From Myxococcota bacterium (GTDB lineage: Bacteria; Myxococcota_A; UBA796; SXON01): a stretch of 32,000 bases of DNA. The notes under the pieces are model-generated. The model saw only the letters and a program-made list of their open reading frames with translations. It was not told the DNA's origin and ran no database searches. Of this stretch, positions 4,901-19,746 are shown in pieces. The position numbers were made by a program, and so were the translations under genes. The stretch lies in NCBI GenBank assembly GCA_040386535.1, contig JAZKFH010000022.1, positions 51,247-83,246 of the forward strand, written 5' to 3'. Within the stretch, counting starts at the first letter, position 1. The number at the start of each line of letters is the position of its first letter.

Positions 4901-5485
4901 AACGCCGCCGCGCGCAAGTGGGTGGCGGCGGTCAACAACGCCAAGAGGTACGGCACCTGGGCGTTCGAGATCTGCCGCGAGCTTCCCAAGCTGCGCGAGC
5001 AGCTCATCCAACACTCGGCGGAGCTGCCCGGCTATCTCCCCTACCGTCGCGTCGAGCCCGATGCCGCCGAGCGCTACCGAAGCTGCGTGCCGATGTTGGG
5101 CCTCCTCGGCGCTGTGCGTCGCTGGCAGAAGCCGGCGCTGATGGACCTTGGCGATCCCAACGTCGAGTGGGTCACCTGGAACGGCGCGCCCGCCTTCGCC
5201 GACGGCATGTTCGTCGCACCCGTGGCGGGCAAGTACGCGCTCTTCCAGCCCTCCGCGGAGGAGCCCGCCGAGGGCGGCTCCTACCTCCTCTACAACGCCG
5301 GCATCGCCGATCCCGATACCGACGCACCCTTCACGGTGCGGACCTTCACGGTCGAGCCGCCCACGCCGGAGCGCTCCCAGGCGCGGATCGTGCTCAAGGG
5401 CCTGCGGGAAGGTGACGTGCCGATCGTCATTCCGGGGTCGGGGGTGGTGAAGGTGGTGGCTTCGTTTGCGGGCTGGGTGCGTTGA
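1904..5485 (+). CDS. res: Type III restriction Res-like SF2 helicase-nuclease (1193 aa) with an extra C-terminal domain
   Basis: Motif I is [15 protein letters not shown] (from about nt 2504). Motif II is [11 protein letters not shown] (DEGH). The motif V/VI region is [39 protein letters not shown]. A PD-(D/E)xK-type core follows, [25 protein letters not shown] (about nt 4795-4870). Gene order is mod then res, as in Type III R-M systems. About 200 aa follow the nuclease core. Confidence 0.85.
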   Translation: [1193 protein letters not shown]

Positions 5486-19400: not shown

Positions 19401-19746
19401 GGCCTGCGCCGTGGATCGCTTCGACGAGGCTCTACAGCATGTGGATAGCGCGTTGGAACGCCACCGCGCTCAGGGGTTCGTCAAGGGCGTCAAAAAGGCA
19501 ATGTACTGTCGCGGCCACGTTCTTCAGCGCGCGGGGCGCCCAGGCGCGTTCGAAGCCTTTCATGAGAGCCTCGCACTCAACCAAAAGCACTTCGACCTCC
19601 TGGGCTTGCAATTGAACCATCGGGCGCTCGCCGAGCTCCTCCGTACATCAGACCCTGCAGCCGCCACAGAGCATGCCCAAAAGGCTTTCGAGTTTGGCAA
19701 CCGGCTCGACCGGGAGGAGTCCCCCCATGAACGCGATCTCTTGTAG
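16474..19746 (+). CDS. STAND (NACHT-like) P-loop NTPase with an N-terminal helical HEPN/DUF4145-like module and C-terminal TPR repeats (~1090 aa)
   Basis: The GTG at 16474 overlaps the upstream TGA (GTGA), and GGAGG at 16462-16466 lies 7 nt upstream. Walker A is IAILAGEAGMGKSTHLV (about nt 17533-17559). Walker B is RVVLLIDGIDEVG (about nt 17770-17802). The N-terminal module carries IIELRNAAHGHVG (nt 16879-16905). The C-terminal ~300 aa have TPR-like helix pairs (for example GRWRSARRAYAGIVG, GQKVEALEHLADALEL, DRFDEALQHVDSALERH). Confidence 0.8.
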   Translation: MSNDNLNASTLIVESEAELERALDELSRILPLPIAQCLGVGGIRRDIPTLLFSAESALRFLAAVVKAIYLAGPIRPSQEVNDLIRRFLIWPSTGSWWNFLRGCLPLFRSGALTGGFPGIVTILEALPAQDVNRIIELRNAAHGHVGAPLAPELEQVVRAELLPLVASVLQTLAPLAAWPLVVYDARLGIWLRCMGPAPTPETRDLGVNAPYPAVLLDTPLGDLPLFPLVVGTFDGYVPAFDLGKTETVLVYDGVDVDRSRIVYVGRHGRGHGKRWFEDYRRRLQERSVALVPCQAQELPGGELLDRLRTCFLQTVDLLRAQGDFDGGAQRLDPAAVGALNDSVASPARIAILAGEAGMGKSTHLVALGQRVLAGGGAVIHLDARMVLSDPTRAFRSSLRVALEGQLALLGASEALLNLAQAAVKAERGDAGRVVLLIDGIDEVGSPARGSGVLSELADWLRRNADALPQLRVVLAVRGTYLAATQRSSKPLAPIADRLYRPTRRGARGADAVEDAIYLLPLDPDSDEVDARYEAYRAGVPSRRPLTPFNQLSPAVRDACRNPRWMVQLLSEYHAREVPALGGAAELWEVLVRREVFALVGGRPLYPGRVRLLDALAAAQLDQGRLFVPLHTLEADPQTGPLVLRDSPREELMALQSVGLLSVEGSDPHDPFGPLVVGPASEGMAVALLANAHPFRTGVPEGWVTRVEAQASTPLWSCVSDAALQVLSVRATRDGFGAVRSAAERLDVGLQARLLLRVLADAKAARGVLPLPGLDEAERELLATLLLATAWGAGQQKVLLPLAEQLLQLPMEEQSAATVEMVARILRHSERVPEAESWLETVIAARPDLECSAGFQRAELLRDKGRWRSARRAYAGIVGMPVDVSVRALALAALGECEIWTGQKVEALEHLADALELIGEADAPTVKCNIHIKRGIAARLARRYPLAVSALLAAEAIALRLNYRTELAKIELELGLVACAVDRFDEALQHVDSALERHRAQGFVKGVKKAMYCRGHVLQRAGRPGAFEAFHESLALNQKHFDLLGLQLNHRALAELLRTSDPAAATEHAQKAFEFGNRLDREESPHERDLL

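What the first reader, a model, noticed from the sequence alone, without database searches (positions are those of the whole stretch)
5482..19746. Seven-gene coupled operon (GrpE-like / Hsp70-like / orphan / double-HKD PLD / SNF2-like helicase / small protein / STAND-TPR) not assignable to a named defence system
Seven co-directional genes run without intergenic space. The junctions are 7380/7380, 9206/9211, 10557/10550, 12550/12547, 16068/16061 and 16477/16474. The operon sits between a Type III-like R-M pair and a Wadjet operon, which is classic defence-island context. Its parts are individually defence-typical: a PLD nuclease, an SNF2 translocase and a STAND NTPase. The combination with an Hsp70-fold ATPase and a GrpE-like protein is not one I recognise. 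It shares PLD plus SNF2 with DISARM, but I saw no DUF1998-type (DrmB) or DrmA-like gene. It shares helicase plus PLD with Dpd-type restriction modules, but there is no TGT-like gene. A chaperone-like ATPase/exchange-factor pair inside a nuclease/helicase operon suggests ATP-driven remodelling or licensing of the effector complex.
Basis: partly seen in the sequence, partly recalled or inferred. Interest (0 to 1): 0.9.

Follow-up and report, generated by a model that had tools for sequence, protein, structure and literature searches.

The report
Defence island, not one seven-gene system
The seven tightly packed genes are real, but related genomes show they are three separate units sitting side by side in a bacterial defence island: a rare Hsp70-like/GrpE-like protein pair, an already catalogued four-gene nuclease-helicase cassette, and a lone NLR-like gene.

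Summary
The domain calls also hold, including "GrpE-like", which a predicted fold supports.

The single seven-gene system is not supported. Comparative genomics splits the array into modules.
- g1-g2 (5482-9206): a HEAT-repeat/GrpE-like protein plus an Hsp70 nucleotide-binding-domain ATPase. This is a very rare conserved pair (13 clusters among 1.84 billion proteins). It recurs in about 10 contexts, usually directly behind varied restriction-type genes (BPTD_3080 REase, GmrSD, KAP NTPase) and sometimes alone. It is never next to g3-g7.
- g3-g6 (9211-16477): a divergent, four-gene form of PADLOC candidate PDC-M27, which resembles Azaca (ZacABC). It recurs in all 80 related loci examined, and g6 is present in 26 of 26 informative loci. 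None of these loci has g1, g2 or g7.
- g7 (16474-19746): a solitary NACHT-TPR STAND gene. It is absent from the closest relative locus, where g6 directly abuts the same convergent JetD-like/MksB operon.

GC3 steps coincide with these module borders. The new item is the g1-g2 pair, an uncharacterised chaperone-type module linked to restriction genes.

The parts
1..1902 (+). Type III-like DNA methyltransferase (Mod); its 5' end is cut by the window edge
   Evidence: Frame 1 is open from base 1. PADLOC MTase_III 2.1e-83 and Pfam N6_N4_Mtase 1.4e-12.
1904..5485 (+). BPTD_3080-family restriction endonuclease (SF2 helicase-type Res subunit)
   Evidence: NCBIfam NF046055 scores 811 bits against a cutoff of 800. 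PADLOC REase_III 5e-10. A 72%-identical homologue sits directly upstream of the g1-g2 pair in L002.
5482..7380 (+). g1: small N-terminal beta domain, HEAT/ARM-like helical repeats, long helices and a C-terminal GrpE-like beta domain
   Evidence: No Pfam, NCBIfam or PADLOC hit. AF2 model from an 11-sequence alignment has pLDDT 80.7. Foldseek hit to GrpEL1 9bls_C: probability 1.00, TM(target) 0.56, 162 columns; other hits are importin/exportin/AP2 repeats. hhalign aligns residues 564-628 to GrpE 123-191 with P 1.7e-4 and probability 49%. The family has only 13 representatives among 1.84e9 proteins.
7380..9206 (+). g2: Hsp70 nucleotide-binding-domain-like ATPase with an N-terminal extension of about 160 aa and no substrate-binding domain
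   Evidence: Pfam MreB_Mbl 1.3e-7 and HSP70 1.8e-4. The family profile's best PDB matches are mortalin/DnaK NBD (4e-8), including the KRLIGR-like region, and MreB (2.5e-7). Invariant DFGT, K233, SEPAAV, DCGAGTTD and GGS motifs in 8 homologues. Weak PADLOC PDC-M61B hits, 1.2e-5 to 7.8e-12 across members.
9211..10557 (+). g3: PDC-M27A-family protein (the position ZacA holds in Azaca)
   Evidence: PADLOC PDC-M27A 3.6e-18. The family profile aligns full length, at 99.3% probability, to a Rhodoferax plasmid protein that scores 1.9e-182 on PDC-M27A. No DUF6361 hit in 30 family members.
10550..12550 (+). g4: PLD-superfamily nuclease with two HxK...SxNLT motifs (PDC-M27B / ZacB-like)
   Evidence: PADLOC ZacB 5e-9, PDC-M27B 1.6e-7 and DrmC 1.1e-5. 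Pfam PLDc_2 1.9e-5. Both motifs are at least 90% conserved in 46 homologues.
12547..16068 (+). g5: SNF2/SF2 helicase-translocase (PDC-M27C / ZacC-like)
   Evidence: PADLOC PDC-M27C 2.1e-67 and ZacC 6.5e-21. Walker A (GMGKT), DExH and motif VI are conserved in 31 homologues.
16061..16477 (+). g6: small YbjN-like protein, the conserved fourth gene of this cassette subtype
   Evidence: Pfam YbjN 2.3e-5, 25.1 bits against a cutoff of 22. Present directly after g5 in 26 of 26 loci with a complete g5 and at least 500 nt beyond it. Absent after the helicase in two canonical PDC-M27 plasmid loci. No PADLOC model.
16474..19746 (+). g7: NACHT-type STAND NTPase with C-terminal TPR and an unassigned N-terminal domain of 340 aa; an independent single-gene unit
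   Evidence: Pfam NACHT 2.5e-6, AAA_22 and TPR_12. PADLOC Avs2 only 2.9e-4. No homologue in any of 80 cassette loci or in any g1-g2 locus. Absent in L102, where g6 is followed 111 nt later by the convergent JetD-like gene. It has the lowest GC3 of the array, 0.767.
19972..20973 (-). JetD-like gene, the last gene of the convergent Mks/Wadjet-like operon
   Evidence: Pfam JetD_C is sub-threshold (E 0.073, 12.9 bits). The ORF is 44% identical (E 4e-73) to the L102 protein that carries a weak JetD_C hit on record. No PADLOC JetD hit.
20970..27552 (-). MksB (20970-25385), MksE (ORF 25382-26734; true start probably near 26030) and MksF (26023-27552): a condensin-like operon convergent on the array
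   Evidence: Pfam MukB N-terminal 5.7e-61, MukB_hinge, MksE/MukE about 1e-26, and MukF_M 1.5e-17. PADLOC JetC only 8e-4.

Best explanation
The region is a defence island in a Myxococcota MAG. Several independently evolving immune units have been packed head to tail on one strand, so they look like a single operon and are probably co-transcribed.

In order, the units are:
1. A Type III-like R-M pair (Mod plus a BPTD_3080-family Res).
2. g1-g2, a conserved pair: a HEAT-repeat/GrpE-like protein and an Hsp70-NBD-like ATPase with intact catalytic motifs.
3. g3-g6, a four-gene, long-helicase subtype of PADLOC candidate PDC-M27, a sister of Azaca (ZacABC).
4. g7, a solitary NACHT-TPR NLR-like sensor inserted between the cassette and a convergent Wadjet-like MksFEB/JetD-like operon.

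Mechanism of the g3-g6 cassette. This is inferred by analogy with Azaca. There, ZacA, the PLD nuclease ZacB and the SF2 helicase ZacC are all needed to cleave phage T4 DNA in vitro, and the helicase Walker A motif and the nuclease active site are essential. By analogy, g3, g4 and g5 form a complex in which the translocase loads on foreign DNA and the PLD nuclease cuts it. g6 would be a small assembly or regulatory subunit.

Mechanism of the g1-g2 pair. This is also inferred. g2 cycles ATP like an Hsp70 NBD. The GrpE-like C-terminus of g1 acts as its nucleotide-exchange factor, and the HEAT repeats hold a partner or client. The pair most often sits as a 3' add-on behind varied restriction-type genes, so it most likely gates, assembles or senses for the neighbouring nuclease. 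It is not functionally tied to g3-g7.
For: Shown here:
- g3-g4-g5 (and g6 wherever the contig reaches) recur in order in all 80 metagenome loci retrieved with g3. None has g1, g2 or g7. g6 is present in 26 of 26 informative loci.
- The flanks of the cassette are otherwise variable.
- g1 and g2 always occur together. The gene upstream of them varies:
  - BPTD_3080 REase in the window and L002.
  - GmrSD in L001 and the P0004 contig.
  - KAP NTPase in L012/L013.
  - GmrSD_N/HEC-05 in L095.
  - 2OG-Fe(II) oxygenase plus a 301-aa protein in L009.
  - Nothing co-directional in L100, so the pair stands alone there; L101 has only two small ORFs (131 and 44 aa) upstream.
- The gap to the upstream gene is -16 to +7 nt in six contexts.
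- The closest cassette relative, L102 (g3 66% identical), has g6 followed directly by the convergent JetD-like/MksB genes and has no STAND gene.
- GC3 steps match the module borders: R-M 0.86/0.91; g1-g2 0.80/0.79; g3-g6 0.87/0.86/0.85/0.84; g7 0.77.
- PADLOC assigns g3/g4/g5 to PDC-M27A/B/C and ZacB/ZacC. The g3 family is homologous over its full length to canonical PDC-M27A.
- The catalytic motifs of g4 and g5 are conserved, as are the ATPase motifs of g2.
- g1 has a GrpE-like fold.

From the literature: the Azaca biochemistry is from bioRxiv 10.1101/2025.07.10.664194.
Against: - The overlapping stop/start junctions across all module borders show there is no room for separate promoters, so the units are probably expressed together and could cross-talk.
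- BPTD_3080-like REase genes lie next to the cassette in 4 of the 80 other loci (L017, L045, L049, L077), which hints at some non-random R-M/cassette association.
- Only about 10 g1-g2 contexts exist, and some share ancestry (window/L002; L001/P0004 contig).
- The function of every unit is inferred; nothing was tested experimentally.
- g4's match to PDC-M27B itself is weak: 1.6e-7, and pairwise E 0.001 to a canonical member.
Confidence: 0.8

Rival explanations
1. One reading: all seven genes (or all nine, counting the R-M pair) form one integrated defence system. In it, the Hsp70-like/GrpE-like pair remodels or licenses the PLD-helicase effector, and the STAND protein acts as sensor.
For: Uninterrupted co-directional packing with overlapping junctions. 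All parts are defence-typical. DISARM-like helicase/MZB/PLD genes lie downstream of g1-g2 in two other loci, the P0004 contig and L097. A published link between chaperones and NLR-like sensing exists: bNACHT25 needs DnaJ (PMC12169576, title and abstract seen).
Against: None of 80 cassette loci has g1, g2 or g7. None of the g1-g2 loci has g3-g7. The closest relative lacks g7. Composition steps fall at the module borders.
Confidence: 0.06
2. g1-g2 is an autonomous two-gene defence system, or another stress module, that merely lands in defence islands. It has no functional link to the gene upstream of it.
For: The pair stands alone in L100 with divergent upstream genes, and follows only small ORFs in L101. 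The upstream partners belong to unrelated families that are each known to work alone (R-M, GmrSD, KAP NTPase). The window itself shows that overlapping junctions also occur between units that are clearly independent (g2/g3, g6/g7).
Against: Neither protein has a recognisable effector domain. In six contexts the pair is the 3'-terminal part of a co-directional unit and lies -16 to +7 nt from a nuclease or NTPase gene. One g1 homologue (P0117) carries an N-terminal DUF559 (Vsr-like nuclease) region, Pfam E 6.6e-4.
Confidence: 0.35
3. g1-g2 is not immune-related. It could be a specialised chaperone pair for a mobile element or a housekeeping client that happens to sit in variable regions.
For: There are no experimental data. 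The family is extremely rare. No PADLOC model covers g1.
Against: Every context with readable neighbours is rich in defence genes: R-M, GmrSD/HEC-05, KAP NTPase, Abi_C, HEPN, NERD, DISARM-like. There are no relatives in 2.9 million viral contigs or in 72,556 plasmids.
Confidence: 0.15

Closest known systems
PADLOC candidate system PDC-M27 (A/B/C)
   Same: Same gene order: A-protein, two-motif PLD, SF2/SNF2 helicase. g5 hits PDC-M27C at 2e-67 and g3 hits PDC-M27A at 3.6e-18. The g3 family profile aligns over its full length to a canonical PDC-M27A.
   Different: This is a divergent branch. g4's match to PDC-M27B is weak. The helicase is about 300 aa longer than in the plasmid examples. A fourth conserved YbjN-like gene (g6) is present in 26 of 26 loci but absent from two canonical plasmid loci and from PADLOC's models. 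PDC-M27 is only a computational candidate, and no paper mentioning it was found.
Azaca (ZacABC)
   Same: A three-gene logic of accessory protein, PLD nuclease and SF2 helicase. g4 hits ZacB at 5e-9 and g5 hits ZacC at 6.5e-21. Azaca protects against T4, and all three proteins are needed for DNA cleavage (bioRxiv 10.1101/2025.07.10.664194).
   Different: g3 and 29 relatives show no DUF6361 (ZacA) signature, and g3 has no PADLOC ZacA hit. The PDC-M27 models fit much better than the Zac models. There is an extra gene, g6.
CoCoNuT type III CnuD (Hsp70-like NBD/SBD plus HEAT-like repeats in McrBC-type restriction systems; PMC11090510)
   Same: An Hsp70-like ATPase combined with HEAT-like repeats, encoded next to restriction-type genes. 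It is known from prediction only.
   Different: No McrB GTPase or McrC/DUF2357 is seen in the window genes or among the annotated neighbours of the g1-g2 loci. Here the HEAT repeats are on a separate protein fused to a GrpE-like domain. g2 lacks an SBD. g2's ATPase motifs are invariant, whereas CnuD's Walker A-like motifs are described as degenerate.
HSP70 + GrpE genes in GAP1-N2 GTPase-centred conflict systems (Kaur et al. 2020, PMC7159879)
   Same: A predicted conflict system with a dedicated HSP70 and its exchange factor GrpE, sometimes with an NBD-only HSP70.
   Different: Those systems are built around GAP1-N2 GTPases with FNIII/DnaJ proteins in actinobacteria and firmicutes. None of these appears among the annotated neighbours here. 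Here the neighbours are restriction enzymes.
DnaK-GrpE housekeeping chaperone pair
   Same: Hsp70-NBD signature motifs are present in g2. g1 has a GrpE-like C-terminal fold.
   Different: g2 has no substrate-binding domain. No DnaJ partner was seen. g1 is three times the length of GrpE because of the added HEAT repeats and an N-terminal beta domain. Neither protein reaches the curated cutoffs of the DnaK, HSP70 or GrpE models.
DISARM and Dpd restriction modules
   Same: A PLD nuclease plus an SNF2-type helicase. There are weak hits to DrmC, DrmD and DpdE.
   Different: No DrmA, DrmB (DUF1998/MZB) or TGT-like gene. The scores are far below the NCBIfam cutoffs: DrmD 55 bits against 610, and DpdE 52 bits against 500.
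Bacterial NLR-like STAND defence proteins (Avs / bNACHT)
   Same: g7 has a NACHT NTPase with Walker A and C-terminal TPR sensor-type repeats.
   Different: Only a marginal Avs2 hit, 2.9e-4. The N-terminal 340 aa has no recognisable effector domain. There is no PDB relative by sequence.

Membership tests
PADLOC PDC-M27 | PDC-M27A protein | tested here: met
   g3 hits PDLC04552 at 3.6e-18. The g3-family profile aligns to a canonical member (which scores 1.9e-182) at hhalign probability 99.3% over the full length.
PADLOC PDC-M27 | PDC-M27B PLD protein | tested here: inconclusive
   g4 hits PDC-M27B at only 1.6e-7, over the N-terminal 35 residues. BLASTP to a canonical member gives E 0.001, collinear, with both HxK regions aligned.
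PADLOC PDC-M27 | PDC-M27C helicase, and gene order A-B-C | tested here: met
   g5 hits PDC-M27C at 2.1e-67. The order A-B-C is conserved in 80 loci.
Azaca (ZacABC) | ZacA with DUF6361 | tested here: not met
   No DUF6361 hit at E<=1 in g3 or 29 homologues. No PADLOC ZacA hit for g3.
Azaca (ZacABC) | ZacB PLD nuclease and ZacC SF2 helicase | tested here: met
   ZacB 5e-9 and ZacC 6.5e-21, both partial-length matches. The catalytic motifs are conserved.
Azaca (ZacABC) | Anti-phage activity, with all three proteins required for DNA cleavage | not testable with these tools
   Known for Bm Azaca only.
Hsp70/DnaK family (g2) | Nucleotide-binding domain with phosphate-1, phosphate-2 and adenosine motifs and the catalytic Lys and Glu | tested here: met
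   Invariant DFGT, K233, E363 (SEPAAV), DCGAGTTD and GGS in 8 homologues. The best PDB matches by profile are the mortalin and DnaK NBDs.
Hsp70/DnaK family (g2) | C-terminal peptide (substrate)-binding domain; score above the curated family cutoff | tested here: not met
   The protein ends with the NBD: 608 aa, with the NBD starting at about residue 165. Pfam HSP70 scores 20.3 bits against a cutoff of 20.6. NCBIfam DnaK scores 19 bits against a cutoff of 648.
GrpE nucleotide-exchange factor (g1 C-terminus) | Long helix plus C-terminal beta domain fold | tested here: met
   AF2 model with pLDDT 80.7, and 87-95 in the C-terminal domain. Foldseek to GrpEL1 9bls_C: probability 1.00, TM(target) 0.56, 162 columns, E 0.054. 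This rests on a prediction, not a solved structure.
GrpE nucleotide-exchange factor (g1 C-terminus) | Sequence-profile membership (Pfam GrpE) | tested here: inconclusive
   No Pfam GrpE hit in 11 members at E<=10.
GrpE nucleotide-exchange factor (g1 C-terminus) | Stimulates nucleotide exchange on its Hsp70 partner | not testable with these tools
   Needs biochemistry or at least a multimer prediction.
CoCoNuT (type III) | McrB-like NxD GTPase and McrC/DUF2357 homologue | tested here: not met
   No such domains in the Pfam or NCBIfam scans of the window genes. None among the recorded Pfam hits of the g1-g2 neighbours.
DISARM | DrmA helicase and DrmB (DUF1998/MZB) | tested here: not met
   There are only weak DrmC, DrmD and DrmA motif-level hits for g4 and g5. 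No MZB/DUF1998 is present in the window array.
Wadjet (JetABCD) for the neighbouring minus-strand operon | JetD (Toprim/JetD_C) after the MukF/E/B-like genes | tested here: inconclusive
   The F-E-B order is confirmed by Pfam. The fourth ORF hits JetD_C at E 0.073 and is 44% identical to a protein with a weak recorded JetD_C hit. The PADLOC Jet models do not match, apart from JetC at 8e-4.

The most novel reading that the evidence does not exclude
The g1-g2 pair is a dedicated Hsp70-type ATPase with its own GrpE-like exchange factor. It has been recruited as a portable regulator of restriction enzymes. It would hold the adjacent nuclease (BPTD_3080 Res, GmrSD or KAP NTPase) in an inactive or assembly-competent state through g1's HEAT scaffold, and release or activate it in an ATP-dependent way on infection. 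This would be "chaperone-gated restriction", a control principle not yet demonstrated for R-M or Type IV systems.
Probability: 0.2. Interest if true: 0.8.

Novelty: new variant of a known kind. Interest (0 to 1): 0.45.

Why it matters
The finding shows how a tightly overlapping gene array in a defence island can pass for a single large system. It also shows that comparative genomics resolves such an array quickly.

Two results go beyond that:
- PDC-M27/Azaca-like cassettes of this abundant subtype carry a fourth, always-present small gene. More than 449 metagenome loci were found for this subtype. Current models omit this gene, so reconstitution experiments should include it.
- A very rare but conserved HEAT/GrpE-like plus Hsp70-NBD pair repeatedly follows unrelated restriction-type enzymes. 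If it regulates them, it would link the Hsp70 nucleotide cycle to nuclease-based immunity. So far that idea exists only as a computational prediction, for CoCoNuT CnuD and for the GAP1-N2 GTPase systems.

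Tried and rejected
- The first AF2 model of g1, built from a 2-sequence alignment, was unusable (pLDDT 49.8). It was redone with 11 sequences.
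- PDB sequence searches with g3, g4, g5, g7 and the g1 profile found nothing useful.
- Plasmid tblastn with g2, g3 and g7 gave no match. A viral-contig scan with g2 found none, and the scan with g1 could not be run.
- The genome-contig scan with g2 gave only 6 loci. L004 and L005 are a different Hsp70-like family sitting in ABC-transporter/HlyD operons and were discarded. L006-L008 are motif-only matches. L003 holds a truncated g2 remnant.
- The promoter/terminator scan was uninformative.
- My first reading was that the downstream condensin operon was "not Wadjet", because PADLOC gave no Jet hits. I revised this after finding the JetD-like fourth gene.
- Literature searches for PDC-M27 and for GrpE-like proteins in defence islands returned nothing.

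Full report
**1. What is in the sequence**

The window has about 69% G+C. Its g2 protein is identical to a hypothetical protein from an 83-kb contig of a Myxococcota MAG.

The tight packing, however, starts further upstream. A methyltransferase gene runs off the window start, since frame 1 is open from base 1. It is followed after 1 nt by a 1193-aa restriction enzyme, whose stop codon overlaps the g1 start by 4 nt. The co-directional block therefore holds at least nine genes, with gaps of +1, -4, -1, +4, -8, -4, -8 and -4 nt.

**2. Domain assignments**

- The upstream pair is Type III-like. The methylase hits PADLOC MTase_III at 2.1e-83. The Res hits NCBIfam "BPTD_3080 family restriction endonuclease" at 811 bits against a cutoff of 800.
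- g1 has no hit in Pfam, NCBIfam or PADLOC.
- g2 is an actin/Hsp70-fold ATPase (Pfam MreB_Mbl 1.3e-7, HSP70 1.8e-4).
- g3 hits PADLOC PDC-M27A at 3.6e-18.
- g4 hits ZacB (5e-9), PDC-M27B (1.6e-7) and DrmC.
- g5 hits PDC-M27C (2.1e-67) and ZacC (6.5e-21), with weaker hits to DrmD, DpdE and BrxH.
- g6 is YbjN-like.
- g7 has NACHT and TPR domains.

ZacABC is the Azaca system. It consists of ZacA (DUF6361), a PLD nuclease and an SF2 helicase. It protects against T4, and all three proteins are needed for DNA cleavage in vitro (bioRxiv 10.1101/2025.07.10.664194).

**3. Are the seven genes co-conserved? They are not.**

*The g3-g6 cassette.*
- A metagenome scan with a 30-sequence g3 alignment found at least 449 relatives, and 80 loci were fetched.
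- tblastn with all nine window proteins shows g3-g4-g5 in the same order wherever the contig reaches.
- g6 lies directly after g5 in 26 of 26 loci that have a complete g5 and at least 500 nt beyond it.
- None of the 80 loci contains g1, g2 or g7.
- The flanks of the cassette are otherwise variable.

*The g1-g2 pair.*
- g2 has only 7 detectable relatives in the 5.8-billion-protein collection.
- The g1 family has 13 representatives among 1.84 billion clusters when every protein is scored by HMMER.
- Wherever one of the two genes is found, the other is adjacent.
- What varies is the gene upstream:

| Locus | Genes upstream of g1-g2 |
|---|---|
| Window, L002 | BPTD_3080 REase (72% identical in L002) |
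| L001 | Methylase - SF2 REase - GmrSD |
| P0004 contig | 1978-aa helicase - GmrSD |
| L012/L013 | Abi_C - 412 aa - KAP NTPase |
| L095/L096 | GmrSD_N (PADLOC HEC-05) |
| L009-L011 | 2OG-Fe(II) oxygenase - 301 aa |
| L100 | None co-directional; the neighbours are divergent, so the pair stands alone |
| L101 | Two small ORFs |
| L097 | Cut by the contig end |

- What lies downstream of the pair is not conserved either.
- No g1-g2 locus contains g3-g7.

*The STAND gene g7.*
- The closest relative of the window's cassette is L102, where g3 is 66% identical.
- L102 has g3-g6 with the same overlaps. Then, 111 nt later, comes a convergent 329-aa gene with a weak JetD_C hit, followed by an MksB-like gene.
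- L102 has no STAND gene.
- The window ORF at 19972-20973 (minus strand) is 44% identical to that JetD-like protein.
- g7 is therefore an insertion into an otherwise syntenic cassette-to-Wadjet-like junction.

*Composition.* GC3 values agree with this partition:

| Module | GC3 |
|---|---|
| R-M pair | 0.86, 0.91 |
| g1, g2 | 0.80, 0.79 |
| g3, g4, g5, g6 | 0.87, 0.86, 0.85, 0.84 |
| g7 | 0.77 |

**4. The g3-g6 cassette in more detail**

Two plasmids, from Rhodoferax antarcticus and Vibrio nigripulchritudo, carry canonical PDC-M27 trios. These score 1e-172 to 0 on the PADLOC models and have no g6-like gene after the helicase.

- The g3-family profile aligns over its full length to the Rhodoferax A protein at 99.3% hhalign probability.
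- g4 is only distantly similar to the canonical B protein.
- Both HxK...SxNLT motifs of g4 are at least 90% conserved in 46 homologues. The same holds for Walker A, DExH and motif VI of g5 in 31 homologues. These are active enzymes.
- No DUF6361 signature is detectable in 30 g3-family members.

The window cassette is therefore a divergent, four-gene, long-helicase subtype of PDC-M27, and a sister of Azaca rather than a member of it.

**5. The g1-g2 pair in more detail**

*g2.*
- Eight g2 homologues share invariant Hsp70-type motifs: WGxDFGTA, K233 in a KRxxVGxR context, SEPAAV, DCGAGTTD and GGS.
- The family profile's best PDB matches are the NBDs of mortalin and DnaK, including the KRLIGR-like region. 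MreB comes next.
- The protein ends with the NBD and has no substrate-binding domain.

*g1.*
- An AF2 model built from 11 sequences reaches pLDDT 80.7.
- It shows a small beta domain, HEAT/ARM-like repeats, long helices and a C-terminal beta domain.
- Foldseek against the PDB returns HEAT-repeat proteins at weak scores. It also returns human GrpEL1 bound to mortalin (9bls_C) at probability 1.00 and target-normalised TM 0.56, over 162 columns of a 159-residue chain.
The alignment includes the DPxxH motif, with P 1.7e-4 and probability 49%.
- The Pfam GrpE model does not hit any family member.

*Relation to known models.*
- g2-family members hit PADLOC PDC-M61B weakly, from 1e-5 to 8e-12.
- g1 members hit nothing in PADLOC.

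**6. Published precedents**

- CoCoNuT type III systems carry CnuD, an Hsp70-like NBD/SBD with HEAT-like repeats (PMC11090510).
- GAP1-N2 GTPase-centred conflict systems include HSP70 plus GrpE (PMC7159879).
- Both are predictions, and both are built around other core genes (McrBC-type GTPases and GAP1-N2 GTPases). Those genes are not seen here.
- No paper linking GrpE-like proteins to defence islands or to GmrSD was found.

**7. Mechanism**

*What is shown.*
- The conserved gene units.
- The conserved catalytic motifs.
- The predicted folds.

*What is inferred for g3-g6.*
- The cassette acts like Azaca, as an ATP-driven SF2 translocase-PLD nuclease complex that needs the A protein.
- g6 is an added small subunit or regulator.

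*What is inferred for g1-g2.*
- The pair runs an Hsp70-type ATPase cycle with a built-in exchange factor.
- The HEAT scaffold binds a partner.
- The pair is most often the 3' end of a unit headed by a nuclease or NTPase, and one homologue is fused to a DUF559 nuclease-like region. I therefore favour a role in gating or assisting the neighbouring restriction enzyme, at about 0.4.
- I put an autonomous defence role at about 0.35 and a non-immune role at about 0.15. The remainder is unassigned.

*g7.* It is a stand-alone NLR-like sensor with an unassigned N-terminal domain.

**8. Verdict**

- The array is a mosaic defence island.
- The central cassette is a new member, and a four-gene subtype, of a catalogued candidate system.
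- The g1-g2 pair is a rare, uncharacterised variant of the "chaperone module in conflict systems" theme. It is the one part worth following up.

Noticed in passing
L017 17356-20541, L045 3-953, L049 20-5813 (minus strand), L077 328-744; window 1-5485: Homologues of the BPTD_3080-type REase, with the methylase as well in L049, lie next to the PDC-M27-type cassette in 4 of the 80 other loci. In L017 the REase starts 7 nt after g6. Together with the window this makes five adjacencies, which may be more than defence-island chance.
   Followed up: partly
P0004 contig and L097 4200-12251: In two g1-g2 loci the pair is followed on the same strand by DISARM-like genes: a large Helicase_C protein and an MZB/DUF1998 protein, plus PLDc_2 in L097. 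In L097 an AAA_15/21 ATPase precedes them, and in the P0004 contig a NERD helicase does.
   Followed up: no
P0117 / L095 8290-10635: One g1 homologue is 781 aa long and has an N-terminal extension that matches DUF559 (Vsr-like endonuclease fold) at E 6.6e-4. A separate DUF559 gene also lies near the pair in L009.
   Followed up: partly
window 29468-30940 (-) and 28503-29471 (-): An AAA ATPase hits PADLOC IetA at 1e-27. A 322-aa ORF with no family hit overlaps its stop by 4 nt. This may be an Iet-like two-gene unit with a non-canonical partner.
   Followed up: no
window 31227-32000 (-): An ORF of 257 aa hits PADLOC candidate PDC-S10 at 1.9e-8, so the defence island may continue beyond the Mks operon.
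   Followed up: no
window 19972-20973 (-): The fourth gene of the MksF-E-B operon is a very divergent JetD-like protein. Pfam JetD_C gives only E 0.073 and no PADLOC Jet model matches, so standard tools would probably miss this Wadjet-like system.
   Followed up: partly
L003 9965-11062: A Deltaproteobacteria MAG carries only the C-terminal 347 residues of a g2 homologue (45% identical) and has no detectable g1. It looks like a decayed copy of the pair.
   Followed up: no
window 5482-5581: NCBI's annotation of g1 (599 aa) starts 33 codons after the TTG at 5482. That start would remove the conserved GELRF motif, so the database gene model is probably too short.
   Followed up: partly
window 27386-28453 (+): An ORF with a C-terminal LGFP repeat (Pfam 1.3e-9) sits between the Mks operon and the IetA-like gene. 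It overlaps the 5' end of the MksF ORF (26023-27552, minus strand).
   Followed up: no
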